This document shows, piece after piece, positions 693 through 62,897 of a DNA stretch of 64,000 nucleotides (its first letter is position 1; the number at the start of each line of letters is the position of its first letter). Source of the DNA: Erysipelotrichaceae bacterium (lineage in GTDB: Bacteria; Bacillota_I; Bacilli_A; RFN20; CAG-449); NCBI GenBank assembly GCA_015059045.1, contig SVBD01000001.1, forward strand, positions 66,165-130,164, in the 5' to 3' direction. The notes beneath the pieces are model-generated. The model made no database searches. It was not told the origin of the DNA and saw only the letters and a program-made list of their open reading frames with translations. A program made the translations under genes and the position numbers.

Positions 693-805
693 TGCGATAT
701 ATAATATTTTTTGTCGAAATTTGTTAGTAGTTTTTTAGTAAATATTTAGCAGTCATTATTGAAGTAGTTAGACTTTTTATATAAAATATAAATGTATAAG
801 GAGAA

Positions 806-10315: not shown

Positions 10316-10392
10316 GGCGGTGTAGCCCAGTTGGTTAGAGCGACCGGCTCATACCCGGTAGGTCGAGGGTTCAAGTCCCCCCGCCGCTACCA
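10316..10392 (+). tRNA. tRNA-Met (elongator, anticodon CAT)
   Basis: Cloverleaf with anticodon loop ctCATac, CCA end encoded. Near-identical to B. subtilis elongator tRNA-Met (GGCGGTGTAGC...CCGCCGCTACCA). Confidence 0.85.
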
Positions 10393-10412
10393 TTTATATA
10401 TTAGATTTTGTA

Positions 10413-10488
10413 GGACCCTTAGTTCAATGGTTAGAGCCCCCGTCTCATAAACGGGTAGTTGTAGGTTCAAGTCCTACAGGGTCCACCA
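10413..10488 (+). tRNA. tRNA-Ile2 (anticodon CAT, lysidine-type) or tRNA-Met-like
   Basis: Acceptor ggaccct/agggtcc. Anticodon stem cccgt/acggg with loop ctCATaa. T-arm GTAGGTTCAAGTCCTAC as in Bacillus tRNA-Ile(CAU). CCA encoded. Confidence 0.75.
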
Positions 10489-10494
10489 AATACT

Positions 10495-10585
10495 GGAGAA
10501 ATACCCAAGTGGCTGAAGGGGTCGGTCTTGAAAACCGATAGGGGGTGCAAGCTCCGCTAGGGTTCAAATCCCTATTTCTCCGCCA
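10495..10585 (+). tRNA. tRNA-Ser (anticodon TGA), class II with long variable arm
   Basis: GGAGAAATACCCAAGTGGCTGAAGGG...CTCCGCCA. Anticodon stem tcggt/accga with loop ctTGAaa. 91 nt. Confidence 0.85.
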
Positions 10586-13084: not shown

Positions 13085-13340
13085 TATAAAAAGCGCCCAT
13101 ATAAATAAGGACGCTTGGATAAACGCGGTACCACCTTAATTCGTATATGAAACATATACGCTCTTAATTGTTATTCTTAACGGGAATAAACGTCTAGTTA
13201 CCTAGAAAGCTCCAAAGTGGTATTGTAAGAGTTGTATATTTCTTTCACCAAATGAAATAATCTCTAATGTTTTCTTACAACATGTCTTTTTCATTGCTTA
13301 TATAAAGTATATAACTTTTGTTTTTTTATTTTCAATAAAA
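13085..13340 (-). promoter_or_regulatory. T-box riboswitch leader of thrS
   Basis: Minus strand reads AGAGA...GGTGA (stem I), then T-box AATTAAGGTGGTACCGCG, then terminator AAGCGTCC...GGGCGCTTTTT, then RBS GGAGG. Candidate specifier ACU. Confidence 0.85.
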
Positions 13341-29462: not shown

Positions 29463-29837
29463 TTATCCAAAAAATGGTGATGAAGGTCCATTATTTTCAA
29501 AATTAATATTACTTTGAGCATTTGTGTTATTTTGATTAAAAGAATAAGTAGATGTACTATTTCCATTTGCATTTCTTTGATTAAAAATAGGGAAATTTAA
29601 GTATTTCTTAATTGAATTAAAAGATGATTTTGCTTGTTGATAAATAGGCTTAATTTGTTTATACATTGGAATAATTTGGTTAATTGTATTGATTCCTTTT
29701 TGAGCGGTGTTTAACAAAGTGTTAAAGTTAAACGATTGAGAAACTATATTTCTCGATGCTTGATTTTGAAATGAATAAAATGCTTTAGGAATGTTATTTA
29801 TATAAGGGTTTCTATTAAAATAGAAATAATTTTGCAT
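29463..29837 (-). CDS. Small Asn/Gln/Phe/Tyr-rich low-complexity protein (possible spore-coat-like or prion-like)
   Basis: 124 aa, about 35% N+Q, many F/Y/S. RBS aggtga 4 nt before the ATG. No homolog recognised. Confidence 0.4.
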   Translation of the reverse strand: MQNYFYFNRNPYINNIPKAFYSFQNQASRNIVSQSFNFNTLLNTAQKGINTINQIIPMYKQIKPIYQQAKSSFNSIKKYLNFPIFNQRNANGNSTSTYSFNQNNTNAQSNINFENNGPSSPFFG

Positions 29838-33635: not shown

Positions 33636-33682
33636 CGTTTAAAAACATTGTTTTTAAATAAAAATGTTAATATAATTGAGTT

Positions 33683-33905
33683 AATTCTATGAAATAGAGG
33701 GTTTATATTGAAGTTTGTAGAGAGAGTTTGGTAGGTGAAAAAACTCAATAGAGATATAAACTTGACACTATGGAGAATGTGAAGTGAAATTAGTAGCGGA
33801 TCCGGTTGTTACGTTAAAACTATAAAGTGCATCAAGATTTTGATGAACTAAGGTGGTACCGTGCTTTATAGCACCCTTAGAGGTACTTTTTTTATTTCAA
33901 GGAGG
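33683..33905 (+). promoter_or_regulatory. T-box riboswitch leader of the hisS-aspS operon
   Basis: Extended -10 tgtTATAAT at 33668-33676. Stem I AGAGAG...GGTGA. T-box AACTAAGGTGGTACCGTG at 33846-33863. Terminator gcacccttagaggtac followed by tttttttat. RBS ggagga. Confidence 0.85.
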
Positions 33906-47892: not shown

Positions 47893-47903
47893 AGACTATA
47901 TTT

Positions 47904-47956
47904 ACTAATATTCTACTAATTATCTACTAAAAGTAATAAATTAGTAGTTTTTTAGT
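47904..47956 (+). repeat. Phased pentamer array A: ACTAA x3 at 47904/47915/47926, then inverted TTAGT x2 at 47941/47952, all at exact 11-bp spacing, dyad centre 47935.5
   Basis: Seen directly. Ends 3 nt before the plsY stop codon (47959-47961). Confidence 0.8.
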
Positions 47957-47958
47957 TA

Positions 47959-48618: not shown

Positions 48619-48730
48619 TTCAAATAACTCCTATTCAATATCATATAGTATAAATTATCTTAATTTATATTTATAGATTTATTTTAATTTTTTTGATATA
48701 ATTTTATTTTGAGTGGATAGGAGTGTAATT

Positions 48731-50689
48731 ATGGCTGAAAAGAAGAATAATTATGGTGCTTCATCATTAAAAATCTTAAAAGGGTTGGAACCAGTAAAGA
48801 AAAGACCTGGTATGTATATCGGATCTACTGACTGGAGAGGAACTCACCATTTAGTATGGGAAATTGTTGATAACGCAATTGATGAAGCTATCGCAGGATA
48901 TGGTAAGAAAATTACGGTTACGATTCACAAAGATGGTTCTTTATCTGTTCAAGACGAAGGTAGAGGAATCCCTTGTGATTACAACGAAAAAGAAAAAATG
49001 GATGGTTTAGACATCGTTTTCTGCACTTTACATGGTGGAGGAAAATTTGATGGTGAAAACTATAAATCTGCAGCAGGTCTACATGGTGTAGGGTCTGCAT
49101 GTGCAAACGCATTATCTGAGTGGTTAAAAGTTACTGTTTATAAAGATGGTAAAGAATATTATGCATCTTATAAAGATGGTGGTAATAAAGATGTTTCAAC
49201 TAAATTAATTGGCGAAACAACTAAAAGAGGTAGTATTGTTACTTTTAAACCGGACAAGAAAATGCTTCCAGAGCCAGAATTTAAATTCGATCTAATTGCT
49301 GAAAGATTGAATAACTCCGCAAGCCAATGTAATGGTGTAAAATTTGTTTTAATTGATGAAAAACAAAATAAAAAACAAGAATTTTTATATACTGAAGGTA
49401 TTAAAGAATACTTAGAAAATAAAAATAAAAATCATTCAAGCGTAAATCCTATTGTTTATTTTAATGATGATAAGAATGAAATTAAAGCAGAATTTGCTTT
49501 CCAATTCCTTTCAGATGTTTACACAGAAGTAGTCTATTCGTTTGCTAATAGTATTTTTACAGTAGAGGAAGGTAGCCACGTTAGAGGTTATCGTTCTGGT
49601 TTTACTAAGGCATTTAATGAATTTGCTTCTAAAAATAATTTAATTAAAGGCAATCAAAAATTAGATGGTAGTGATATTCGTGAAGGTCTATCATGCGTAG
49701 TAAGCGTTAGAATCCCAGAAGAAAAAATTCAATTTGAAGGGCAAACTAAAGAAAAACTAGGAACTCCTGAAGCTGCAACTGTTGTAGAAACATTAGTCTA
49801 CGCTAATGTAACTCGTTATTTAATTGAAAATAAAGAATACGCAAATAAGATATTTACTAGAATTTTAGAAGCTCAGAAAGCTCGTTTGGCGGCTAGAAAC
49901 GCTAAAGAAGAAGTAAGAAATAAGATGCCAAAAGATGTTGAGAAATCAACTCTTATGCTTTCAGGTAAATTAGTTCCACCTCAATCAAAAGAATATAACA
50001 AATGTGAATTATTTATCGTAGAAGGTGATTCTGCTGGTGGAAGTGCTAAAAAATGTCGTGATAAGAAATATCAAGGACTATTACCACTTCGTGGTAAACC
50101 AAAAAATATTTCTAATGATGCTGAAGACGCATTCATGAAAAATGAAGAATTATCTACTCTTGCTTTTACAATTGGTACAGGTACAGGCAAAGAGTTCAAT
50201 ATCCGTAATCTACATTATGATAAAGTAATTATTATGACCGATGCTGATACCGATGGTGCGCATATTCAAAACTTATTAATCAATTTCTTCTATAAGAAGA
50301 TGAAACCATTAATTGAATTAGGACATGTTTATGTGGCTTGTCCACCTTTATATCGTGTATTTAAAATGGTTAAAAAGACTACTATTGAAGAATTTGCTTG
50401 GAACGAACAAGAATTAGAAATTGCTAAAAAGAAAATCGGAGCAGGTTATACTGTTTCTCGTTATAAAGGTCTTGGTGAAATGGATGCAGATCAACTTTGG
50501 AGAACAACTATGGATCCAAGAAATCGTAAATTAATTAAATTATCAATTCAAGATGATAAAGTTGCTGGAGATATGGTTGAATTATTTATGGGTAAAAATC
50601 CAGCTCCAAGAAATGCTTGGATTTCAGAAAATATCGATTTCTCAAATAAAGGTGATTTCTTTATCGAGGAGGTGAAGAATAATGGCTAA
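48731..50689 (+). CDS. parE: Topoisomerase IV subunit B (ParE)
   Basis: GHKL ATPase (EIVDNAIDE), TOPRIM (EGDSAGG), PLRGK. Followed by ParC. Start set at the ATG after RBS ggataggag. Confidence 0.9.
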   Translation: MAEKKNNYGASSLKILKGLEPVKKRPGMYIGSTDWRGTHHLVWEIVDNAIDEAIAGYGKKITVTIHKDGSLSVQDEGRGIPCDYNEKEKMDGLDIVFCTLHGGGKFDGENYKSAAGLHGVGSACANALSEWLKVTVYKDGKEYYASYKDGGNKDVSTKLIGETTKRGSIVTFKPDKKMLPEPEFKFDLIAERLNNSASQCNGVKFVLIDEKQNKKQEFLYTEGIKEYLENKNKNHSSVNPIVYFNDDKNEIKAEFAFQFLSDVYTEVVYSFANSIFTVEEGSHVRGYRSGFTKAFNEFASKNNLIKGNQKLDGSDIREGLSCVVSVRIPEEKIQFEGQTKEKLGTPEAATVVETLVYANVTRYLIENKEYANKIFTRILEAQKARLAARNAKEEVRNKMPKDVEKSTLMLSGKLVPPQSKEYNKCELFIVEGDSAGGSAKKCRDKKYQGLLPLRGKPKNISNDAEDAFMKNEELSTLAFTIGTGTGKEFNIRNLHYDKVIIMTDADTDGAHIQNLLINFFYKKMKPLIELGHVYVACPPLYRVFKMVKKTTIEEFAWNEQELEIAKKKIGAGYTVSRYKGLGEMDADQLWRTTMDPRNRKLIKLSIQDDKVAGDMVELFMGKNPAPRNAWISENIDFSNKGDFFIEEVKNNG

Positions 50690-53255
50690 GAAAAATGTCA
50701 ATATTGAAGAAGTATTTGAACAAACAATTATTGAATCTCCAATTGATGAAGTCATGAGTCAAGGATTTGGTCGTTATTCTAAGTATGTATTACAAGAAAG
50801 AGCCGTTCCTGATGTAAGAGATGGCTTAAAACCAGTTCAAAGAAGAATTGTATATACAATGACTTTAGAAGGTAATACTTCTAATAAACCAACTAGAAAG
50901 TGTGCTAGAACAGTTGGAGCCGTTATCGGTAGATTCCATCCACATGGTGATGCTTCTGTTTATGATGCAATGGTTAGACTATCTCAAGATTGGAAAATGA
51001 GATATCCTTTAGTCGACTTCCAAGGTAATAATGGTTCAATTGATGGCGATGGCGCAGCAGCATATCGTTATACTGAAGCGCGCTTATCTGAATTAAGTGA
51101 ATTATTAGTTCAAGATTTAAATAAAAATGTCGTAGATATGGAATTAAACTTCGACGATCAAGAACTCGAACCAACAGTTCTTCCATCTCGATATCCAAAT
51201 TTATTAGTAAATGGTTCTTCAGGTATTGCAGTAGGGGCTTCTACTGATATTCCACCTCATAATTTAGGTGAAGTAATTGATGCAATTTGTTATAGAATTT
51301 CTCATAAAAACGCTAAAATTGATGAATTATTTGAATTTGTTAAGGGTCCTGACTTCCCAACAGGAGGCATCATTAAAGAGGGAAATTCTTTAAAGGAAAT
51401 ATATTCTAAAGGTCAAGGATCATTTAAATTATATGCTAGAACTCATATTGAAGAGGGAAAAGCAGTCAATCAAATTATTATTGAGGAAATCCCTTACGGA
51501 AAAGATAAATCTGAATTTGTTAATAACATTGATAGAGTAAGATTTGCAAACAAGTTAGATGCAATTGTTGAAGTTAGAGACGAAACTGGCATGGAAGGTT
51601 TAAAAATCGCTATCGATGTTAAAAAAGATGCTGATATCAATAACTTATTAAACTTCTTATATTCAAAAGGATGTTTATCTACAACTATTAAGTTTAATAT
51701 GTTAGTTATTGATCACTTCAGACCTAGAGTATGTAATTTATTAGAGGTAATTGATTGCTATATTGAACATCAAGTTGATGTATTAACTAGACGTTCTCAA
51801 TATGATTTAAATAAGGCTAAAGCAAGATTACATATTGTTTCCGCATTAATTCGTGCTGTTTCAATCATGGACCAAGTTGTATCATTAATTAGAAGCAGTA
51901 AAGATAAGCAACACGCTAAACAACGTTTAATTACTGAATTAGATTTCACAGATATTCAAGCAGAAGCTATTTTAAATCTTCAATTATATAGATTGACTAA
52001 CTTAGATGTTACTACTCTAGTTAATGAGAAAGCTGATTTAGAATCTCAAATTGCATATCACGAAGCTTTACTTGGCTCATCTACTAAGATGAATAACTTA
52101 ATTAAGAGCGATTTAACTAAAATCAAAGAAAAATATGCTGATGAAAGAAGAACTTCAATTGAAGAAGAAGAGATTTCATTTAACGTTGATAAAAGAGCAT
52201 TAATTACAAAAGATGAAGTAATGGTTGCATTTACTCGCGATGGATATTTCAAACGTACGCAAATGAAATCGTATAATTCTTCTACAGTTGATTTACCTGG
52301 AATTAAACAAGGTGACGTATTTAAAGGTATAACAAAGGCATATACAACTGATTTCTTAGTTATTTTCACTAATTTTGGTAATTTCTTAAATATTCCAGTT
52401 TATATGTTAACTGATAATAAATGGAAAGATGAAGGCCAACACATTAATCAAATTGGTCAATTAAATCCAAACGAAAAAGTTGTTAATGGTATTTTAATAA
52501 GTGAATTTAGAGAAGATGTTAATCTTACATTTGTAACAAAATTAGGTCAAATTAAACGTTCACCAGTTAATGAGTTAAATGTTAGTAAGTTTGCTAAGCC
52601 AGTCAAATGCTTCAGATTATTAGATGGTGACGAGCTTGTAGATGTTAAAGTAGTGAATGGTGATACTAATTTATTAGTAGTTAACTCAAATGGTACATCT
52701 TCATTCTTTAATGAAAATGATGTTTCGTTAGTTGGTATAAAAGCTGGTGGCGTAAAAGCATTAAGTTCTACTAAAGAGAAGATTGATGTAGTTTCTTTAT
52801 TAACGTATAGAACAAATGAAAGATCTAAAATCATTATTTTGACAGATGAAAAAGGTGTAAGAATTGTTGATTCTTCACACTTAATTAAGACAAATAGATT
52901 AGGTGCAAAACAACAATTATTCAAATCATTTAAAGCTTACCCTCAAGAAGCAATTTATGTTGAAAAATCATCAAAAAATAATGAAATTTCAACAATTTAC
53001 GCAATTCTAGAGAATAATGCGTTGTCAAAAATTTCACTTGATGAAGTTAAATCTCAACCAATTGAAAGTTTCTTAAAAACTAACTTAGAAATCGATAGTC
53101 CTTTCAAATTTATTGACTCTTATACTTTTGATGTAGAAAGAGTAGATGAAACATTAGAAGTAGTCGAAATCAAAAAGACTATTGAAATAGTTAAAAAAGA
53201 CATTTTAGAAGATTATGAACAATTATCATTATTTGATTTTGTAGATGATGATTAA
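50682..53255 (+). CDS. parC: Topoisomerase IV subunit A (ParC)
   Basis: Active-site Tyr region (AAAYRYTEARL). GyrA/ParC N-terminal domain. C-terminal domain lacks a clear GyrA-box. 857 aa. Confidence 0.88.
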   Translation: MAKKNVNIEEVFEQTIIESPIDEVMSQGFGRYSKYVLQERAVPDVRDGLKPVQRRIVYTMTLEGNTSNKPTRKCARTVGAVIGRFHPHGDASVYDAMVRLSQDWKMRYPLVDFQGNNGSIDGDGAAAYRYTEARLSELSELLVQDLNKNVVDMELNFDDQELEPTVLPSRYPNLLVNGSSGIAVGASTDIPPHNLGEVIDAICYRISHKNAKIDELFEFVKGPDFPTGGIIKEGNSLKEIYSKGQGSFKLYARTHIEEGKAVNQIIIEEIPYGKDKSEFVNNIDRVRFANKLDAIVEVRDETGMEGLKIAIDVKKDADINNLLNFLYSKGCLSTTIKFNMLVIDHFRPRVCNLLEVIDCYIEHQVDVLTRRSQYDLNKAKARLHIVSALIRAVSIMDQVVSLIRSSKDKQHAKQRLITELDFTDIQAEAILNLQLYRLTNLDVTTLVNEKADLESQIAYHEALLGSSTKMNNLIKSDLTKIKEKYADERRTSIEEEEISFNVDKRALITKDEVMVAFTRDGYFKRTQMKSYNSSTVDLPGIKQGDVFKGITKAYTTDFLVIFTNFGNFLNIPVYMLTDNKWKDEGQHINQIGQLNPNEKVVNGILISEFREDVNLTFVTKLGQIKRSPVNELNVSKFAKPVKCFRLLDGDELVDVKVVNGDTNLLVVNSNGTSSFFNENDVSLVGIKAGGVKALSSTKEKIDVVSLLTYRTNERSKIIILTDEKGVRIVDSSHLIKTNRLGAKQQLFKSFKAYPQEAIYVEKSSKNNEISTIYAILENNALSKISLDEVKSQPIESFLKTNLEIDSPFKFIDSYTFDVERVDETLEVVEIKKTIEIVKKDILEDYEQLSLFDFVDDD

Positions 53256-55690: not shown

Positions 55691-55984
55691 ATGTTAAGTA
55701 CAAAACAAATTAAATATTTAAAATCACTTGCTAATACATTAGAATCAAAATATAAGATTGGCAAAAATGAAATCAGTCATAATACTATAGTATTATTAGA
55801 TAATGCATTAAAGAAAAATGAACTAATCAAAGTTAGCTTAAATAATACAGTTTCAGAAGATAAAAACGAAATTGCTAGTTCTTTAAGCGAACAATTACAT
55901 TGCGAAGTAGTGCAAATCGTTGGTAATGTAATTACATTATTTAGAAAAAATTTAAAGGATGGTAAAATCCATTTACCGAATTAA
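55691..55984 (+). CDS. yhbY: YhbY/CRS1 family RNA-binding protein (YqeI)
   Basis: KQIKYLKSLANTLESKYKIGKNEIS...IKVSL pattern. 97 aa. Confidence 0.75.
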   Translation: MLSTKQIKYLKSLANTLESKYKIGKNEISHNTIVLLDNALKKNELIKVSLNNTVSEDKNEIASSLSEQLHCEVVQIVGNVITLFRKNLKDGKIHLPN

Positions 55985-55985
55985 T

Positions 55986-57074
55986 ATGAAGTATATTATT
56001 TATGGGGGATCTTTTGATCCAATACATAATGGTCATATTCAAATGGCTTTAAAGGCAAAAGAAGTAACTAACGCTGATAAAGTCATTTTCTTATTGTCTA
56101 AAAGACCACGTTGGAAAAATCCTTTAGAAGATGAAAATCATCGCTTAAATATGCTTAAATTAGCTTTATATAACATATCTTGGGCGGAAATTGATTTAAC
56201 AGAGTATAATTCCTTAGAAGATGTTAATTACACTTACAGAACTATTTTGAAAATAAAAAATAAATATCCAGGTGATTTATATTTCTTAATTGGAGGAGAC
56301 AATGTCAACCAATTAAATGATTGGTATGAAATTGATAAGTTATCAAAGATTGTTAAATTAATTGCAATCGCAAGACCTGGAATCGAACTAAATTATAACA
56401 ATATTTCCAAATATAATGTTGAAGTAATTAATTCTTATATTAGTAATATGAGTTCTACTTCTTTAAGAAATATGAGTAATTTAGATTGTCCAATTGAAGT
56501 TTTACAATATATTATTGAAAATAATTTATATTTTGTACCAAGATTAAAAGAGTATATTTCTGAAAAAAGATTTAATCATTCATATGAAGTTGCCAAATTA
56601 GCGTATCGTATCGCTAAAAGTAATAATTTAAATGAAATTAAGGCTTTTACAGGAGGATTACTTCATGATATAGGAAAAGGTATGGATAAAGATAAACAAA
56701 GGGCTTATATGGCTTTAAATTATCCAGAATTCTTAAATGAGTTGCCACCACCTCTATATCATCAATTTATATCTAGAGATATATGTATAAATGATTTTAA
56801 TATTTCTGATCAAGAAATACTAAATTCAATTGTATATCACGCAACAGGGAATAGCGAAATGACATCATTAGGAAAAGTTATATATAGTTCCGATAAGATT
56901 GAACCTACTAGAGGTTATGATTCTTCAGATATGATAAATGCGTGCTTAGAAGACTATCAAAAAGGTTTTGAATACGTTTTAAAAGAGAATATAAAGTTTT
57001 TAAAGGAAGCAAATAAAAGTTATGACAATGTTTTAACTAGAAAATGTATCAATTATTATTTAAAGGAGAGATAA
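55986..57074 (+). CDS. nadD: Fusion of nicotinate-nucleotide adenylyltransferase NadD with HD-domain hydrolase YqeK
   Basis: N-terminal half GGSFDPIHNGH (HxGH) = NadD. C-terminal half RFNHSYEVAKLA...GLLHDIGKG = HD motif of YqeK. Single uninterrupted ORF. Confidence 0.85.
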   Translation: MKYIIYGGSFDPIHNGHIQMALKAKEVTNADKVIFLLSKRPRWKNPLEDENHRLNMLKLALYNISWAEIDLTEYNSLEDVNYTYRTILKIKNKYPGDLYFLIGGDNVNQLNDWYEIDKLSKIVKLIAIARPGIELNYNNISKYNVEVINSYISNMSSTSLRNMSNLDCPIEVLQYIIENNLYFVPRLKEYISEKRFNHSYEVAKLAYRIAKSNNLNEIKAFTGGLLHDIGKGMDKDKQRAYMALNYPEFLNELPPPLYHQFISRDICINDFNISDQEILNSIVYHATGNSEMTSLGKVIYSSDKIEPTRGYDSSDMINACLEDYQKGFEYVLKENIKFLKEANKSYDNVLTRKCINYYLKER

Positions 57075-57412: not shown

Positions 57413-58093
57413 ATGAAAGAAGTAAATTTAATAATTGCTGCCATGGATGAAGAGGTTCAAGCGCTACTTGATAATCTTCCAAATTATGAAGTAAAAACTA
57501 TCGATGATAACACTGCCTATGAATTCAAAATTAGAGATGAAAATTTCATCTTAGTTAAAGGAAAAATTGGGAAAGTTTATACATCAATATTCTTGTCTAG
57601 ATTAGCTCTAATTTTAAAGATAAAAAGAGTATTTAATATTGGTACTTCCGGTGGGGTAAACAAAGGTCTAAAAATTAATGACGTGATAGTTGCAACTAAG
57701 GTTGGATATCATGATGTAGATGTCACATTCTTCAATTATGAAATTGGTCAAATTCCAGGTGATCCAAGATACTATGAATGTGATAATGAATTTGTAGAAT
57801 CTAGAATAATTGATCCGAAATATTCTATTAAAAGAGGAATCATTTTATCAGGTGATTCATTCGTTACTAGAGAAAATATTAATTCGAAAAATATTAATGT
57901 AGAAGAATGTCTTGCTTGTGAAATGGAATCTGCTTCGGTAGGGCAAACATGTTCTCAACTTAAAATCCCATTTGTCATAATTAGATCTATTTCAGATTTA
58001 ACATTTGAACAAATAGACGTAGATAGGCACAATAATGATGTAGTATCTTCTTCTACTAACTCAGCTTTAGTTCTTCTAGAATTAATTAAATAA
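57413..58093 (+). CDS. mtnN: 5-methylthioadenosine/S-adenosylhomocysteine nucleosidase
   Basis: MKEVNLIIAAMDEEV, TSGGV, SGDSFV motifs. 226 aa. Confidence 0.88.
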   Translation: MKEVNLIIAAMDEEVQALLDNLPNYEVKTIDDNTAYEFKIRDENFILVKGKIGKVYTSIFLSRLALILKIKRVFNIGTSGGVNKGLKINDVIVATKVGYHDVDVTFFNYEIGQIPGDPRYYECDNEFVESRIIDPKYSIKRGIILSGDSFVTRENINSKNINVEECLACEMESASVGQTCSQLKIPFVIIRSISDLTFEQIDVDRHNNDVVSSSTNSALVLLELIK

Positions 58094-58099
58094 GTAATC

Positions 58100-58130
58100 A
58101 AACAATGTCTTAATTCGACATTGTTTTTTT
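58100..58130 (+). terminator. mtnN terminator
   Basis: aaacaatgtc-ttaattc-gacattgttt followed by ttttttt. Confidence 0.8.
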
Positions 58131-58203
58131 ATTACTTACAATAAAGTAGTGAATTCATACACATAATTTTTAATAATTCGAACATATTTCTAAATATATA
58201 CTT

Positions 58204-58231
58204 ACTTCGCATAATGTTTATTATGTAAACT
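58204..58231 (+). other. dif: dif-like chromosome dimer resolution site (XerC arm - 6-bp core - XerD arm)
   Basis: ACTTCGCATAA-TGTTTA-TTATGTAAACT. 23/28 identical to B. subtilis dif (ACTTCCTAGAATATATATTATGTAAACT), with the XerD arm 11/11. Left arm CGCATAA as in E. coli dif. Lies in a convergent intergenic gap at the + to - gene-orientation switch, 2.5 kb from xerD. Confidence 0.8.
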
Positions 58232-58315
58232 AAATAAGTATTTAATATGGATTTTTCCATATAATTTTAATATACATATTAGTTATCAACATTATAAATA
58301 CTTGAGTTTTCCACA

Positions 58316-58346
58316 ATAAAAAAGGCGGTATTTTCAACCACCTTTA
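58316..58346 (-). terminator. Terminator of the minus-strand lipoprotein gene
   Basis: aaaaaggcgg-loop-ccaccttt with one mismatch, plus A/T runs. Confidence 0.5.
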
Positions 58347-58347
58347 T

Positions 58348-58374
58348 ACTAAATATATACTAATTATCTACTAA
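58348..58374 (+). repeat. Phased pentamer array B: ACTAA at 58348/58359/58370, spacers ATATAT and TTATCT
   Basis: Seen directly. The last pentamer overlaps the stop codon of the minus-strand gene 58371-59516. 117 bp from dif. Confidence 0.8.
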
Positions 58375-59516
58375 CTAAGCAATTTTATATAATATTGTTC
58401 AGGAAATTCTTCATTAATAAATTGAGAGTATCCTTTTAAATAGTTTTCATCATAGTAAGTAAATATATTCTTTACATATTCTAATCTATTAATGAATTTT
58501 TCATAAGGCGCATCTTCACCAAGCCACAAATGCCATGCTTGTAATCTACTTGTTTCATTCCACGATATTCCAACAGTATCGAATTGATATTTATAAGCTA
58601 AATATGTTTGCTCTGAATTAGGATCTTCGTTTGGATCATTATATTCTTCTGACATTTCTCTAAAATGAATTCTATTGTTCGCGGCTTTTCTAACATTGAT
58701 TAAATCTATTGTTGAATTTAAATAATCAAACACTTCATACATTGCGTCTTGATTATTATTGTAGTAATCAAGATTAACAAATAAACCACATTGAGGAATA
58801 CCTCTATCATTGAGATTTAAATCATCATTATATGATAAATAAGCATCTCTTAAAGTCTTACAATATTGTTCTTTAGTATGATCATCTCCTCGATCATCAT
58901 TAAGGGTAAAATTAGCATATTTTTCATTATATAATTTTGATTCTTTTAAGGTCATTAATCTAGTCGCATAAGGCTCATTAATTAAGACATAATCATAATC
59001 ATTTTCTAAGCCTTCTTGAGAGAATAAATAATTATAAAATTCAAGGTCATTATATGATAAATAATCTACGTCAAATTTATCAATTTTATTTAATGTTTTT
59101 CCTGCACTACCAAACTCATTATTTGTTAAAACTTTATATGATTTAGATGTTGGATCTAAATTTTTTAAAGGAATAAATTGTTGGTTCCCCATTGCAATAG
59201 TACCTACATAAGCATAGTTACCATATTCCTTACATAAATCTAATCCCCTAACTGAATCGTAAACAATCATTTGATAATTGCTATTATCTTTAAATGCATT
59301 TTCAATAGATTCTAAACTATCAGTAAATGTAAATTTTTCATCTTCGTAATATGTTAAAAACGCTAAAGAAGCAACACCTTTTTGACATATTAAATTAAAT
59401 TTTAATGGCTTATAAATAATTAACCAATTTTCAAGATTACAAGAACAACTACTAGTAGTTAATAAGGTCAATGATAATAATGATATAGATAGTAATTTAC
59501 AAAATCTATTCATCAT
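58371..59516 (-). CDS. Lipoprotein of unknown function (signal peptide, lipobox LLTTSSC)
   Basis: N-terminal [26 protein letters not shown]. 381 aa. Rich in N/Y/D/E. No family recognised. Overlaps the deoB start by 11 nt. Confidence 0.6.
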
Positions 59517-60733: not shown

Positions 60734-61612
60734 CTATTTTTTGTTCATAAACAAATCATATGCAGATATTATTCTTTTACTTGAAACATGAGTGTAAATT
60801 TGTGTAGTAGTAATATTGCTATGACCTAACATTTCTTGCACCATTCTTAAATCTAATCCATTTTCTAATAAATGTGTAGCAAAGCTATGTCGTAATGTAT
60901 GAGGTGTTACATTTATTGTTATACCCGCATCTGAAGTATATTTTTTGATAATTTTCCAAAAATATTGTCGAGAAAGAGGTTTTCCAAAGTGATTTAGAAA
61001 AACATAATTACTACGGTAAATATCATACTTTCCTCTAACTTCAAATAAATATTTTAATAAGTACTCTTTTGCAAAATCACCTATTGGTACATGTCTTTCT
61101 TTATTCCCCTTACCAATTATCTTTAAAATTCCTAAATCAATATTAACTTGTTTTAATTTCAAATTTAATAATTCACTTACTCTCATTCCTGAAGAATACA
61201 TTACTTCAAGCATTGCTCTGTCTCTAATTCCTTCTTTTTTCTTCATATCAGGTTGTTCAAATAATGCTTCGATTTCATCTGTAGATAAAACGTCAGGTAA
61301 ATGATCATTCTTCTTTGGCATTGCAATATCATTTGAATTATTAGTTAAAATATTTTCTTTTTGAAGAAAATTATAAAATTGTCTTACAGTTCCTGCTCTT
61401 CTAATAATTGTTGTAGCCGCTTTTCCTTGACTTGATAATTTCATAATATAATCTTCAATATCATAAATCGTTAATTCCTCAGAATTTTCTTTTTTTGTGC
61501 ACTCGAAAAATGACAATAGATCTTCTTTATAACAATCTAAAGTTAAAATAGAAACATTTCTTTCATAGAACATCATTTCGATAAAACGTTCATATGCATC
61601 TTTAATCTTCAT
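60734..61612 (-). CDS. xerD: Tyrosine recombinase XerD
   Basis: HTLRHSFATHLLENGLDLRMVQEMLGHSNITTTQIYTHV with R..HxxR..Y catalytic residues. N-terminal core-binding domain. 292 aa. dif site 2.5 kb away. Confidence 0.88.
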   Translation of the reverse strand: MKIKDAYERFIEMMFYERNVSILTLDCYKEDLLSFFECTKKENSEELTIYDIEDYIMKLSSQGKAATTIIRRAGTVRQFYNFLQKENILTNNSNDIAMPKKNDHLPDVLSTDEIEALFEQPDMKKKEGIRDRAMLEVMYSSGMRVSELLNLKLKQVNIDLGILKIIGKGNKERHVPIGDFAKEYLLKYLFEVRGKYDIYRSNYVFLNHFGKPLSRQYFWKIIKKYTSDAGITINVTPHTLRHSFATHLLENGLDLRMVQEMLGHSNITTTQIYTHVSSKRIISAYDLFMNKK

Positions 61613-62783
61613 CTTTATTTCCTTCTAATTCGCTTGCTTTTATAAAAACATTTTTCTTATATTTATTATTTAATTCATTAATTAGCAATTTTGTTGCACA
61701 CTTTTCACGATGTTGTTTAATATCAAAAAAAGACATTTGAACATAAAAATCTTTTATATTTGATAAATTTGATAGAGTTACACCAACTAATCTAATAACT
61801 TTACCATTAAAATTATCATCGTATAATTTAATTGCTACATTATATATATCTTCGATATTATTTGTTGGCATTTTAATAGTTTCTGATCTTGAAAATGTTC
61901 TAAATTCACTATCTTTTATCATCAAAGAAATAGTTGAACCAATTTTCTTTTCTTTTTGAGCTCTTTTACTAACATCAACAGCTTTCTCATATATCATATT
62001 ACGAATTTCTTCATAATCATCTGTATCAAATAAAAATGTAGTTGAATTTCCAATAGACTTAGGGTCTTGATATTCAGTAATAACTTCGTCACTACCCTTT
62101 CCTTCAAGCCATTCTTTTAGAACATAATACGATTTACCTAATGTTTTTTTTACCTCAATTGTGTCATTTTTTGCTAAATCACCTATAGTTTTAACACCTA
62201 ACTTTTCTAATCTAGGATAAGTTTTTTTACCTATTCCAAACATATCTTTTATTGGGAGAGGCCAAATAATATTTTTTATGTCTTTTTTCCTTATAATAGT
62301 AATGCCCATAGGTTTTTTAATATCTGATGCCATTTTTGCTAAAAATTTTGTTGGCGCTAAACCAATTGAACACATTAATTTAGTTTCATCAAATAAATGT
62401 TTTTGTAATTCTTTTAAAAATAATTCTGGATCCTTGCAATTTTTCATACATTCAGTCATATCAGCATAACATTCATCAATAGAAGCTATTTCTATAATAT
62501 CAGTATATTTTCTTACGTAATTGAAAAATTTAGTGCTTAAATCATGATATAGATTGAAATCACAATCCCTAACTATGACATTTGGACATAACTTTAATGC
62601 CATATATGTTGGCATAGCAGAATTGATTCCAAATTTCCTAGCTTCATATGAAGCGGTAGAAACAATCCCTCTCCTAGTAGATCCAGCAATAATTAGTGGC
62701 TTACCTTCTAACTCAGGTTCCTTTATTACTTGAGCACGAGCGTAAAAACAGTTTAAATCGATATGCATAATGATTCTACTCAT
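61602..62783 (-). CDS. dinB: DNA polymerase IV (Y-family, DinB)
   Basis: MSRIIMHIDLNCFYA, SIDECYAD catalytic motifs, little-finger domain. 393 aa. Confidence 0.9.
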   Translation of the reverse strand: MSRIIMHIDLNCFYARAQVIKEPELEGKPLIIAGSTRRGIVSTASYEARKFGINSAMPTYMALKLCPNVIVRDCDFNLYHDLSTKFFNYVRKYTDIIEIASIDECYADMTECMKNCKDPELFLKELQKHLFDETKLMCSIGLAPTKFLAKMASDIKKPMGITIIRKKDIKNIIWPLPIKDMFGIGKKTYPRLEKLGVKTIGDLAKNDTIEVKKTLGKSYYVLKEWLEGKGSDEVITEYQDPKSIGNSTTFLFDTDDYEEIRNMIYEKAVDVSKRAQKEKKIGSTISLMIKDSEFRTFSRSETIKMPTNNIEDIYNVAIKLYDDNFNGKVIRLVGVTLSNLSNIKDFYVQMSFFDIKQHREKCATKLLINELNNKYKKNVFIKASELEGNKDED

Positions 62784-62859: not shown

Positions 62860-62870
62860 CTATTAAATTA

Positions 62871-62897
62871 ACTAATTATCTACTAAATATATACTAA
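62871..62897 (+). repeat. Phased pentamer array C: ACTAA at 62871/62882/62893, spacers TTATCT and ATATAT
   Basis: Seen directly. Ends 2 nt before the spo0A stop codon (62900-62902). Shares the 16-mer ACTAATTATCTACTAA with arrays A and B. Confidence 0.8.

What the first reader, a model, noticed from the sequence alone, without database searches (positions are those of the whole stretch)
58204..58231. dif-like Xer site at a gene-orientation switch: window probably spans the replication terminus
The 28-mer ACTTCGCATAA-TGTTTA-TTATGTAAACT has the canonical dif architecture: two 11-bp arms around a 6-bp core. Its right arm is identical to the XerD-binding arm of B. subtilis dif, and its left arm shares CGCATAA with E. 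coli dif. It lies in an unusually long (277 bp) convergent intergenic gap. To its left about 85% of genes are on the + strand. To its right all six genes (58.3-64 kb) are on the - strand, which is the expected leading-strand bias flip at a terminus. xerD is encoded 2.5 kb away.
Basis: partly seen in the sequence, partly recalled or inferred. Interest (0 to 1): 0.6.

Follow-up and report, generated by a model that had tools for sequence, protein, structure and literature searches.

The report
Chromosome dimer-resolution (dif) site at terminus
This 28-base sequence is very likely the ordinary chromosomal dif site, where Xer recombinases separate joined sister chromosomes, and it sits at the local replication-terminus signature of an uncultured gut bacterium; this is a correct but routine annotation.

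Summary
ACTTCGCATAA-TGTTTA-TTATGTAAACT lies at 58204-58231 and is unique in the window. Both 11-bp arms equal the predicted Lactobacillus casei dif. The right arm equals the B. subtilis dif XerD/RipX arm.

Twenty-one further loci, spanning at least 13 distinct sites in uncultured Bacilli/Erysipelotrichales-like genomes (XerD 42-85% identical where seen), carry the site in the same convergent gap. The arms are essentially invariant and the inner 4 bp of the spacer vary freely, as expected for a tyrosine-recombinase core site.

The site lies between two convergent intrinsic terminators, 2.5 kb from a catalytically complete xerD. Cumulative G-C peaks at 57943, 261 bp away. Genes are 83% on + to the left and 100% on - for at least 13 genes to the right. 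Third-codon-position skew suggests that the replication strand itself flips there, not only the coding strand.

Not testable here: whole-chromosome skew, genome-wide uniqueness, and presence of xerC and ftsK/spoIIIE.

Novelty is low: a new member of a known kind. One unexplained extra is a clade-conserved set of elements on the XerD-arm side: a small palindrome, a DnaA-box-like 9-mer about 100 bp from dif, and 11-bp-phased TACTAA repeats.

The parts
58204..58231 (+). dif core site, in three parts. Left arm 58204-58214, ACTTCGCATAA, is the XerC/CodV-type arm by analogy. Central region 58215-58220 is TGTTTA. Right arm 58221-58231, TTATGTAAACT, is the XerD/RipX-type arm.
   Evidence: exact sequence, unique in the window; arms equal the L. 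casei predicted dif, and the right arm equals B. subtilis dif; arms are conserved and the spacer is variable across 21 further syntenic loci.
60734..61612 (-). xerD-type tyrosine recombinase gene (292 aa), the presumed partner for the right arm.
   Evidence: TIGR02225 XerD scores 328.0 bits (cut-off 329.6), PRK00283 scores 313.7 bits (cut-off 279), and XerC scores lower at 296.5; aligns end to end with E. coli XerD (1a0p, E=5e-53) and keeps the motifs that carry the R-K-H-R-H-Y catalytic residues (GMRVSEL, GKGNKER, HTLRHSFATH, LGHS, IYTHV); the closest named homologues are called XerD by NCBI.
58100..58133 (+). Intrinsic terminator of the + strand yqeG-yqeH-yhbY-nadD/yqeK-rsfS-mtnN operon.
   Evidence: 10-bp stem, loop of 7, then a T-run. 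Shuffles of the region gave 0 terminator-like sites.
58313..58345 (-). Intrinsic terminator of the - strand dinB-xerD-deoB-lipoprotein operon. Together with the mtnN terminator it leaves dif in an interval of about 180 bp between the two terminators.
   Evidence: 9-bp stem followed by TTTTTT; the stem is kept with different sequences in relatives.
58246..58261 (.). Small palindrome TATGGA-TTTT-TCCATA, 15 bp beyond the XerD arm. An inverted repeat of different sequence sits at the same position in relatives.
   Evidence: for the sequence. for the alignment: examples are CGATnnnATCG, AGATttaATCT, CCTAattaTAGG. Function unknown.
58307..58315 (+). DnaA-box-like 9-mer TTTTCCACA. A second, one-mismatch box TTATCAACA is at 58283-58291. 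This element is a conserved neighbour of dif, not part of the dif core.
   Evidence: for positions; a box with at most 1 mismatch lies at +89 to +115 from the dif start, on the XerD-arm side, in 15 of 22 related loci, and it is a perfect TTATCCACA in 9; perfect boxes are about 15-fold denser within 300 bp of dif than elsewhere in the 119 dif loci.
58347..58374 (+). Three direct repeats of TACTAA with an 11-bp period, overlapping the stop codon of the lipoprotein gene.
   Evidence: 10 hits in the window against 1.2 expected; present at +132 to +168 from dif in 17 of 22 related loci. The same arrays occur at three other intergenic sites in the window, so they are probably a gene-end element rather than part of dif.
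58371..59516 (-). A 381-aa predicted lipoprotein of unknown family, the last gene of the xerD operon and the gene nearest dif. It is present, absent or of different length in relatives.
   Evidence: N-terminus [24 protein letters not shown] resembles a signal peptide with a lipobox (my reading); no Pfam or NCBIfam family; absent in L205 and L207; 339-415 aa in other relatives.
48713..53255 (+). parE-parC (topoisomerase IV), 5-9.5 kb left of dif. Context only.
   Evidence: TIGR01058 parE_Gpos 783.6 bits and TIGR01061 parC_Gpos 832.6 bits; the linkage is conserved in relatives.

Best explanation
The 28-mer is the chromosomal dif site of an uncultured, spore-forming, low-GC (about 27-28%) Bacilli/Erysipelotrichales-like gut bacterium, and it marks the junction of the two replichores.

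Mechanism, inferred by homology with E. coli XerCD/dif and B. subtilis CodV-RipX/dif:
1. A XerC/CodV-type recombinase binds the left arm ACTTCGCATAA.
2. The XerD encoded 2.5 kb away binds the right arm TTATGTAAACT.
3. When homologous recombination has joined the sister chromosomes into a dimer, the two dif copies are brought together at the closing septum by an FtsK/SpoIIIE/SftA-type translocase.
4. The two recombinases exchange strand pairs one after the other across the 6-bp central region, giving monomers.

Shown here: the sequence, its uniqueness in the window, its conservation pattern, its non-transcribed setting, the nearby intact xerD, and the local strand-composition switch.

Inferred: recombinase binding, the existence of xerC and a translocase elsewhere in the genome, and actual termination of replication near this point.
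For: 1. Sequence. Both arms are identical to the predicted L. casei dif, and the right arm is identical to the experimentally characterised B. subtilis dif. The same arm pair occurs once per contig in at least 119 species genomes across many phyla. That is the behaviour expected of the widely conserved dif consensus.

2. Not chance. There are 0 matches in 100 shuffles even at 3 mismatches.

3. Phylogenetic footprint. The site lies in the same convergent gap in 21 further loci, representing at least 13 distinct sites in genomes of GC 0.25-0.54. XerD identity to the window ranges from 42 to 85% where a match was seen, and several 8-kb loci show only one flank. The flanking order is dinB-xerD-deoB-[lipoprotein] | dif | [mtnN]-rsfS-nadD. 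The arms carry 0-2 changes, while the inner 4 bp of the spacer differ in most lineages (TGTTTA, TTGTTA, TCTCCA, TGTCTA, TACATA, TGGACA, TGTTCA and others). The surrounding intergenic DNA is largely unalignable.

4. Setting. The site lies between two convergent intrinsic terminators, in the largest intergenic gap of the window.

5. Terminus signature.
- The cumulative G-C maximum of the 71.6-kb window-plus-extension is at 57943, 261 bp from dif.
- Gene strand switches from 83% + to 100% - over at least 13 genes.
- Coding-strand GC3 skew is -0.34 for the nine - strand genes on the left, which is lagging-like. It is -0.03 for the left + strand genes. It is +0.05 to +0.18 for the - strand genes on the right. 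Fisher p=6e-10 and per-gene Mann-Whitney p=0.003.

6. Partner enzyme. The nearby xerD keeps the motifs that carry the catalytic residues.

7. Replicon. The window is core housekeeping chromosome: lepA, hrcA-grpE-dnaK-dnaJ, dnaG-sigA, six aminoacyl-tRNA synthetase genes, parEC and spo0A. It is not a plasmid or prophage.
Against: - No whole-chromosome view: only 71.6 kb of this genome could be read. In this genome GC skew follows the coding strand strongly, so the raw skew peak is confounded with the gene-orientation switch.
- The GC3 test is partly confounded by expression level. The left - strand set includes pyk, pfkA and thrS, and strongly expressed + strand genes such as dnaK also have negative GC3 skew. 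The two farthest right-hand genes also have negative GC3 skew.
- Genome-wide uniqueness was not tested.
- No xerC/codV and no ftsK/spoIIIE/sftA are encoded in the window.
- Polar k-mers flip across the site but cannot be separated from coding-strand effects.
- There is no experimental evidence for this organism.
Confidence: 0.88

Rival explanations
1. The site is bound mainly or only by the adjacent XerD. In one version it is a single-recombinase Xer system, in which a site-linked recombinase gene is typical (as in XerS/difSL and XerH/difH). In another it acts chiefly as a XerD-dependent SMC-unloading site at the terminus, as described for B. subtilis XerD, rather than as a two-recombinase XerC+XerD dimer-resolution site.
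For: - xerD stays within about 1.8-3.5 kb of the site wherever both were seen. Kono et al. report that xerD is usually not near dif.
- No xerC is encoded in the window.
- The two arms are somewhat more symmetric (8 of 11 positions, read from the sequence) than in E. coli or B. subtilis dif (6 of 11).
- XerD is described as a sequence-specific SMC unloader at the B. subtilis terminus (citing Karaboja et al. 2021).
Against: - The site has the full 11+6+11 XerCD architecture, not the 31-bp difSL layout.
- The three asymmetric positions between the arms are themselves invariant across the clade, which suggests two different binding proteins.
- The left arm equals that of L. casei, for which Kono et al. 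used XerC and XerD to predict dif.
- The protein is a normal XerD by profile and length, not XerS (126.8 bits against a cut-off of 267).
- A role in SMC unloading would add to dif function rather than replace it.
Confidence: 0.06
2. The 28-mer is a dif-like attachment site belonging to, or left behind by, a mobile element that integrates by hijacking Xer recombinases. Alternatively it is a secondary pseudo-dif, with the true dif elsewhere.
For: - The gene immediately next to the site is a variable lipoprotein gene with no known family, absent in some relatives.
- dif-like sites of the looser ACTTCNNATAA-N6-TTATGTAAACT pattern occur on 69 contigs classed as viral.
Against: - Only one dif-like site is present in 64 kb. 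There is no second flanking copy such as an integrated element would create, even when 5 arm mismatches are allowed.
- The flanks are conserved housekeeping operons in the same order in all relatives.
- No integrase, phage or plasmid genes lie nearby.
- The lipoprotein gene overlaps deoB and shares its terminator, so it is part of that operon.
- None of the four viral contigs with the same arms has this spacer.
Confidence: 0.04
3. The match is a chance occurrence or a non-functional relic in AT-rich intergenic DNA that happens to sit at a local gene-orientation switch created by an inversion.
For: The window is 72-73% A+T and the site is AT-rich. Loose half-site patterns are not enriched over shuffles.
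Against: - A full 22-position arm match never occurred in shuffles.
- The site is conserved across a clade whose XerD has diverged to as little as 42% identity, while neighbouring intergenic bases are not conserved.
- The same convergent junction is conserved in all relatives, so it is not a recent inversion.
Confidence: 0.02

Closest known systems
Bacillus subtilis dif (Bsdif) with CodV/RipX (Sciochetti et al. 2001; reviewed in PMC5357621)
   Same: - The architecture is 28 bp: 11-bp arms around a 6-bp centre.
- The right (RipX/XerD) arm TTATGTAAACT is identical.
- The left arm begins ACTTC in both.
- The location is non-coding and at the terminus.
- The XerD-type recombinase aligns end to end with E. 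coli XerD.
   Different: - The left-arm inner half is CGCATAA here and CTAGAA in B. subtilis.
- The centre is TGTTTA here and TATATA in B. subtilis.
- Here xerD lies 2.5 kb from dif, whereas from my own knowledge of the B. subtilis map ripX is hundreds of kb from dif.
- No RTP homologue was seen among the window's proteins.
Predicted dif of Lactobacillus (Lacticaseibacillus) casei (Kono et al. 2011, PMC3025954, supplement 2)
   Same: Both 11-bp arms are identical (ACTTCGCATAA / TTATGTAAACT).
   Different: - The central hexamer is TATATA in L. casei and TGTTTA here.
- The organism and gene neighbourhood are unrelated.
- The L. casei site is itself a computational prediction.
Escherichia coli dif with XerC/XerD/FtsK
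   Same: - The overall architecture is the same.
- The left-arm inner 7 bp CGCATAA are identical.
- The centre differs by one base (TGTATA against TGTTTA).
- The inner palindrome CATAA...TTATG is shared.
- XerD keeps the motifs that carry the catalytic residues.
   Different: - The outer arm positions differ (GGTG against ACTT on the left, TTAAAT against AAACT on the right).
- FtsK-gamma activation of XerD is established in E. coli, but for B. subtilis the review held here reports no direct activation by SftA or SpoIIIE.
- Which regime applies to this organism is unknown.
XerS/difSL of streptococci and lactococci, and XerH/difH of Helicobacter and Campylobacter (single-recombinase systems)
   Same: The recombinase gene is genetically linked to its site at the terminus.
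   Different: - difSL is a 31-bp site with weak similarity to dif, and it directly precedes xerS.
- Here the site is canonical 28-bp dif.
- The recombinase is XerD-type (the XerS profile scores far below its cut-off).
- Two genes separate the recombinase gene from the site.

Membership tests
XerCD-type chromosomal dif site | 28 bp: two 11-bp arms in imperfect inverted repeat around a 6-bp central region. | tested here: met
   The arms ACTTCGCATAA and TTATGTAAACT match at 8 of 11 positions when one is reverse-complemented. The inner CATAA/TTATG is a perfect palindrome. The spacer is 6 bp.
XerCD-type chromosomal dif site | Sequence match to experimentally defined or phylum-consensus dif. | tested here: met
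   the right arm equals B. subtilis dif and both arms equal the predicted L. casei dif; the arm pair recurs once per contig in at least 119 species.
XerCD-type chromosomal dif site | Arms conserved, and central region free to vary, among related genomes at an orthologous position. | tested here: met
   across 21 further loci the arms carry 0-2 changes and the inner 4 bp of the spacer vary, always in the same convergent junction.
XerCD-type chromosomal dif site | Located at the GC-skew shift or replichore junction of the chromosome. | tested here: inconclusive
   Met locally: the cumulative G-C maximum is at 57943 in 71.6 kb, the gene strand switches, and GC3 skew flips. The chromosome-wide profile is unavailable, because only metagenome contigs exist.
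XerCD-type chromosomal dif site | Single copy per chromosome. | tested here: inconclusive
   Unique in the 64-kb window at up to 3 mismatches. Each relative's roughly 20-kb locus has one site. There was no exact hit in JGI metagenome contigs and none among viral contigs.
XerCD-type chromosomal dif site | Non-coding location. | tested here: met
   the site lies in the 277-bp gap, between the terminators at 58100-58133 (+) and 58345-58313 (-).
XerCD-type chromosomal dif site | The genome encodes XerD. | tested here: met
   the gene at 60734-61612 (-) is XerD-type and keeps the motifs that carry the catalytic residues.
XerCD-type chromosomal dif site | The genome encodes a second recombinase (XerC/CodV) and an FtsK/SpoIIIE-family translocase. 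| not testable with these tools
   Neither is encoded in the window.
XerCD-type chromosomal dif site | Polar translocase-guiding motifs (KOPS/SRS-like) converge on the site. | tested here: inconclusive
   GAAGAAG occurs 25/11 (+/-) on the left and 2/9 on the right, and TTAGAAGA occurs 22/2 and 0/10. These purine-rich words also follow the coding strand, and counts within lagging-strand genes are too few to separate the two effects. B. subtilis SRS GAGAAGGG is absent.
XerCD-type chromosomal dif site | Supports Xer-dependent recombination, and loss gives a segregation defect. | not testable with these tools
   This needs experiment.
XerS/difSL single-recombinase system | A 31-bp difSL consensus immediately upstream of a roughly 356-aa XerS gene. 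| tested here: not met
   The site is 28-bp canonical dif. The recombinase is 292 aa. The XerS profile NF003462 scores 126.8 bits against a cut-off of 267. The definition of difSL is from PMC1914069.
Plasmid multimer-resolution site (cer/psi type) | The site sits on a plasmid, with about 180 bp of accessory sequence beside the XerC arm. | tested here: not met
   The replicon carries core housekeeping genes. The conserved neighbouring elements lie on the XerD-arm side, and nothing is conserved on the XerC-arm side. The cer/psi definition is from my own knowledge.
Integrated mobile element exploiting Xer (IMEX) attachment site | Two dif-like sites flanking an inserted element that lacks its own integrase. 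| tested here: not met
   The window holds a single site, even when 5 arm mismatches are allowed. The flanks are conserved and syntenic.

The most novel reading that the evidence does not exclude
In this clade, dif may be one end of a conserved block of about 170 bp rather than an isolated 28-mer. On the XerD-arm side only, and at nearly fixed spacing, lie three further elements:
- a small palindrome whose sequence differs between lineages;
- a DnaA-box-like 9-mer, TT(A/T)TCCACA, at +89 to +115 from the dif start in 15 of 22 loci, perfect in 9;
- three or four helically phased (T/A)ACTAA repeats.

If DnaA or another protein really binds there, the block could link Xer/dif activity or terminus organisation to the initiator or to a nucleoid protein. 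I found no description of this in the papers searched.

The evidence does not exclude a plainer reading: these are merely the 3'-end and terminator elements of the xerD operon plus one conserved regulatory box.
Probability: 0.12. Interest if true: 0.55.

Novelty: new member of a known kind. Interest (0 to 1): 0.2.

Why it matters
For annotation, the site fixes the replichore junction of an uncultured gut Bacilli/Erysipelotrichales-like lineage known only from metagenome-assembled contigs. That helps orient contigs, interpret strand bias and read replication-rate (peak-to-trough) profiles for these organisms.

It also shows that this spore-forming low-GC clade uses the canonical Bacilli-type dif. 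By contrast, in Clostridium botulinum, C. perfringens and C. beijerinckii the published predictions either failed or fell far from the skew shift.

The mechanism itself is textbook, so the biological surprise is small. The only open thread is the conserved DnaA-box-like element and phased repeats next to dif.

Tried and rejected
1. Genome-wide uniqueness and chromosome position. An exact 28-mer scan of JGI metagenome contigs found nothing. The contigs that carry the locus (up to the 0.2-1 Mb size class) can be read only to +/-10 kb.

2. Complete chromosomes among the arm-pair hits (Luteimonas CP141262, OY776512, OY970324, OZ252103). These place the site at 17-72% of record length. The record start is not known to be oriC, so this was not used.

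3. Polar-motif (KOPS/SRS-type) analysis. The words flip across dif but are confounded with the coding strand, so I rejected this as independent evidence.

4. XerD half-site (XDS-like) enrichment. TTATGTAAACT at up to 1 mismatch gives 7 hits against 5.7 expected, and the left arm gives 1 against 1.3. There is no enrichment.

5. Fork-trap (RTP/Ter-like) reading of the TACTAA arrays. I rejected it for three reasons. Array orientation follows the direction of the adjacent gene, not the replichore: the array beside the - strand plsY on the left has the same orientation as the arrays on the right. No RTP-like protein is encoded in the window. From memory, the spacing is 11 bp here against 16 bp in B. 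subtilis Ter sites.

6. Rfam scan of the window. It found only two T-box leaders and three tRNAs, with nothing in the dif gap.

7. Prophage or IMEX origin. Only four viral contigs carry the same arms, none with this spacer or this context.

8. Family assignment of the 381-aa neighbour. Pfam and NCBIfam gave nothing.

Full report
**Observation**

The sequence ACTTCGCATAA-TGTTTA-TTATGTAAACT is at 58204-58231 on the + strand. It is the only match in the 64-kb window even when 3 mismatches are allowed, and none of 100 dinucleotide-preserving shuffles produced a match. A much looser consensus (ATAA-N6-TTATGTWAANT, 1 mismatch) is expected about 1.3 times by chance. The significance therefore comes from the full 22-position arm match, not from the general shape.

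The gap 58094-58370 is 277 bp and convergent. It is the largest of 62 intergenic gaps (median 22.5 bp), although three others are 258-270 bp.

**Comparison with known dif sites**

Kono et al. 2011 (PMC3025954, supplement 2) list these sites:
- B. subtilis 168 dif: ACTTCCTAGAATATATATTATGTAAACT. The right arm is identical to the window site.
- E. coli/Shigella dif: GGTGCGCATAATGTATATTATGTTAAAT. It shares CGCATAA, and the centre differs by one base.
- L. casei predicted dif: ACTTCGCATAATATATATTATGTAAACT. Both arms are identical.

The B. subtilis site is experimentally characterised. CodV prefers the left half and RipX the right half (PMC5357621).

Each locus held one match, and they came from Bacillota, deltaproteobacterial, Binataceae, Gemmatimonadota and other genomes. 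This arm pair is therefore a widespread form of the dif consensus.

**Gene context**

- The left flank is the 3' end of a yqeG-yqeH-yhbY-nadD/yqeK-rsfS-mtnN operon on the + strand.
- The right flank is the 3' end of a dinB-xerD-deoB-lipoprotein operon on the - strand, preceded by spo0A.
- Both operons end in intrinsic terminators, at 58100-58133 (+) and 58345-58313 (-). The region's shuffles gave 0 terminator-like sites. dif therefore lies in an interval of about 180 bp between the two terminators.
- The recombinase at 60734-61612 scores 328.0 bits on the XerD equivalog (cut-off 329.6), 313.7 on PRK00283 (cut-off 279) and 296.5 on XerC.
- It aligns over its whole length with E. coli XerD (1a0p, E=5e-53) and retains the motifs that carry the R-K-H-R-H-Y catalytic residues.
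- The rest of the window is core housekeeping chromosome: lepA, hemW, hrcA-grpE-dnaK-dnaJ, thrS, pyk, pfkA, dnaB/dnaI-type loaders, era, recO, glyS, dnaG-sigA, relA, hisS-aspS, efp, plsY, parE-parC and sigK. A plasmid or prophage origin is excluded.
- No xerC/codV and no ftsK/spoIIIE gene lies in the window.

**Source organism**

- The exact proteins occur only on metagenome contigs, for example ENA ERZ27247464 k141_741244 (174 kb). That contig is identical to the window over the 13.3 kb compared.
- The closest named XerD homologues are from 'Bacilli bacterium' MAGs.
- More distant syntenic relatives are labelled Erysipelotrichales or Erysipelotrichaceae.
- Spo0A, SpoIVB, SigK and YqfD point to a spore-former.

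**Conservation**

Using XerD homologues of 55-74% identity, I fetched the surrounding DNA from six further lineages. Among the arm-pair hits I recognised fifteen more loci of the same clade, with GC from 0.25 to 0.54. Several of those 8-kb loci show only one flank, and L117 shows only a 42%-identical XerD match.

In every locus the 28-mer lies in the same convergent junction: dinB-xerD-deoB-[lipoprotein] | dif | [mtnN]-rsfS-nadD.

- The arms carry 0-2 substitutions.
- The first and last base of the central hexamer are fixed (T....A).
- The inner four bases differ in most lineages.
- In alignments the 28-mer is an island of invariant columns in otherwise poorly alignable AT-rich DNA.

Conserved arms with a free spacer are what is expected of a tyrosine-recombinase core site. 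The arms are protein-binding sites, and the spacer needs only to match its sister copy.

**Is this the terminus?**

- Raw GC skew is positive to the left and negative to the right of about 58 kb.
- The cumulative G-C maximum of the window plus 7.6 kb of extension is at 57943, 261 bp from dif.
- In this genome skew also turns negative wherever genes lie on the - strand (11-17 kb and 38-40 kb). The raw signal is therefore confounded with gene orientation.

To separate the two effects I computed GC skew at third codon positions on the coding strand:

| Gene set | Number of genes | Coding-strand GC3 skew |
|---|---|---|
| Left, + strand | 45 | -0.03 |
| Left, - strand | 9 | -0.34 (every gene between -0.19 and -0.63) |
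| Right, - strand, inside the window | 5 | +0.18 |
| Right, - strand, reachable on the contig | 12 | +0.05 |

- Fisher's test on left - strand against right - strand genes gives p=6e-10. The per-gene Mann-Whitney test gives p=0.003.
- Genes on the same coding strand thus have opposite third-position bias on the two sides. This fits a flip of the leading strand between sigK (53.9 kb) and the right-hand operon.

Caveats:
- Highly expressed genes also have negative GC3 skew (dnaK is -0.47), and the left - strand set includes pyk, pfkA and thrS.
- Even so, poorly expressed left - strand genes (sigK, glcK, plsY) are negative, while poorly expressed left + strand and right - strand genes are mostly positive.
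- The two farthest right-hand genes are negative.

Purine-rich polar words (GAAGAAG, TTAGAAGA) flip across the site but cannot be separated from coding-strand effects.

Together with the 83% to 0% + strand gene switch, sustained for at least 13 genes, and the clade-wide conservation of the convergent junction, the local evidence for a replichore junction is good. Chromosome-scale confirmation was not possible.

**Mechanism (inferred by homology)**

1. A XerC/CodV-type protein binds the left arm and the locally encoded XerD binds the right arm.
2. The two dif copies of a chromosome dimer are brought together at the septum by an FtsK/SftA/SpoIIIE-type translocase.
3. Two sequential pairs of strand exchanges across the 6-bp centre resolve the dimer.
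4. It cannot be said whether XerD is directly activated by the translocase, as in E. coli, or not, as reported so far for B. subtilis.
5. XerD bound here might also unload SMC complexes, as reported for B. subtilis (citing Karaboja et al. 2021).

**Rivals**

- A XerD-only or single-recombinase system is suggested only by the tight xerD-dif linkage and the somewhat more symmetric arms. The canonical architecture, the invariant arm asymmetry and the XerD-type protein argue against it.
- An IMEX or pseudo-dif site is unlikely. There is one site, the flanks are housekeeping genes in conserved order, and there are no mobile-element genes.
- Chance is excluded by the shuffles and by conservation.

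**Beyond the finding**

On the XerD-arm side only, the clade conserves three further elements at nearly fixed distances from dif:
- a small palindrome whose sequence differs between lineages (window 58246-58261);
- a DnaA-box-like 9-mer at +89 to +115 in 15 of 22 loci, a perfect TTATCCACA in 9 and TTTTCCACA at 58307-58315 in the window;
- three or four (T/A)ACTAA direct repeats with an 11-bp period at +132 to +168 in 17 of 22 loci.

The TACTAA arrays also occur at three other intergenic sites in the window: 724-751, 47903-47957 and 62870-62897. That makes 10 hits against 1.2 expected. In relatives they recur at conserved intergenic positions (spo0A|dinB and xseB|recN). Their orientation follows the adjacent gene, not the replichore. 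They are therefore probably a general gene-end or operator element and not a Ter-like fork trap. TACTA/AACTA are the preferred motifs of B. subtilis Rok (PMC6212790), but no Rok-like protein was looked for or found, so this is only a lead.

I found no report of a DnaA box paired with dif in the papers searched. The element remains unexplained.

**Verdict**

This is a canonical dif site at a local terminus signature in an uncultured Bacilli lineage. It is a new member of a well-known kind and of low surprise. The neighbouring conserved elements are a modest curiosity.

Noticed in passing
window 58283-58291 and 58307-58315; also L197, L200, L201, L205, L207, L139, L173, L179, L194 and others, at +89 to +115 from dif: A DnaA-box-like 9-mer, TT(A/T)TCCACA, is conserved at nearly fixed distance on the XerD-arm side of dif in 15 of 22 related loci. 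It is a perfect TTATCCACA in 9 of them. Among the seven syntenic loci scanned in full, it is the only perfect box in four of the five that have one. Its function is unknown.
   Followed up: partly
window 724-751 (-), 47903-47930 (+), 47941-47957 (-), 58347-58374 (+), 62870-62897 (+): Arrays of two or three TACTAA direct repeats with an 11-bp period give 10 hits against 1.2 expected. All are intergenic. Most lie just after a stop codon, oriented with the gene so that the sense strand reads TTAGTA-N5-TTAGTA. They recur at the same intergenic positions in relatives (spo0A|dinB, xseB|recN, and the gene end next to dif). The binding factor is unknown; the motif resembles the Rok-preferred TACTA only as a lead.
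   Followed up: partly
window 58246-58261: A palindrome TATGGA-TTTT-TCCATA lies 15 bp beyond dif. Relatives have a different inverted repeat at the same position, for example CGATnnnATCG, AGATttaATCT and CCTAattaTAGG. That suggests a structure or a symmetric binding site.
   Followed up: partly
window 58371-59516 (-): A 381-aa predicted lipoprotein with no Pfam or NCBIfam family is the last gene of the xerD-deoB operon and the gene nearest dif. It is 339-415 aa in some relatives and absent in L205 and L207.
   Followed up: partly
window 48713-53255 (+), 60734-62783 (-), and L002 3628-7768: Chromosome-maintenance genes cluster around dif and stay syntenic across the clade: parE-parC lie 5-9.5 kb to the left, and xerD, dinB, recN and xseA/xseB lie within 13 kb to the right. 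The xerD-dif linkage contrasts with Kono et al.'s statement that xerD usually lies near the origin.
   Followed up: partly
window 13104-13303 (-), 33680-33881 (+), 10316-10582 (+): T-box leaders lie upstream of thrS and of hisS-aspS. Three tRNA genes lie between mgtE and a polysaccharide deacetylase gene.
   Followed up: no
window 55959-57074 (+): nadD and yqeK (HD-domain Ap4A hydrolase) are fused into one 371-aa ORF. Its best NCBIfam match is PRK07152.
   Followed up: no
window 29463-29837 (-): A 124-aa ORF has strongly negative coding-strand GC skew (-0.37), unlike nearly every other ORF in the window, and no family match. It is probably not a real gene.
   Followed up: no
loci L080, L083, L091, L095, L096, L099, L100, L107 and others (genome-contig hits): Twenty of the 119 loci that share this arm pair also share the same central hexamer, GAAGTA. 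Most are MAGs labelled 'delta proteobacterium' or Binataceae. The whole 28-mer is therefore conserved across many species there, unlike the free spacer in the Bacilli clade.
   Followed up: no
Kono et al. 2011, supplement 2: The published dif predictions for four Clostridium botulinum genomes lie 137-176 degrees from the GC-skew shift point. Prediction failed for C. perfringens 13 and C. beijerinckii. Canonical dif is thus not evident in Clostridium sensu stricto, in contrast to this spore-forming Bacilli-like clade.
   Followed up: no
loci L008-L076 (viral contigs): Sixty-nine contigs classed as viral carry a Firmicutes-type dif-like site (ACTTCNNATAA-N6-TTATGTAAACT). These may be prophage calls that run into host dif, or Xer-exploiting elements.
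   Followed up: no
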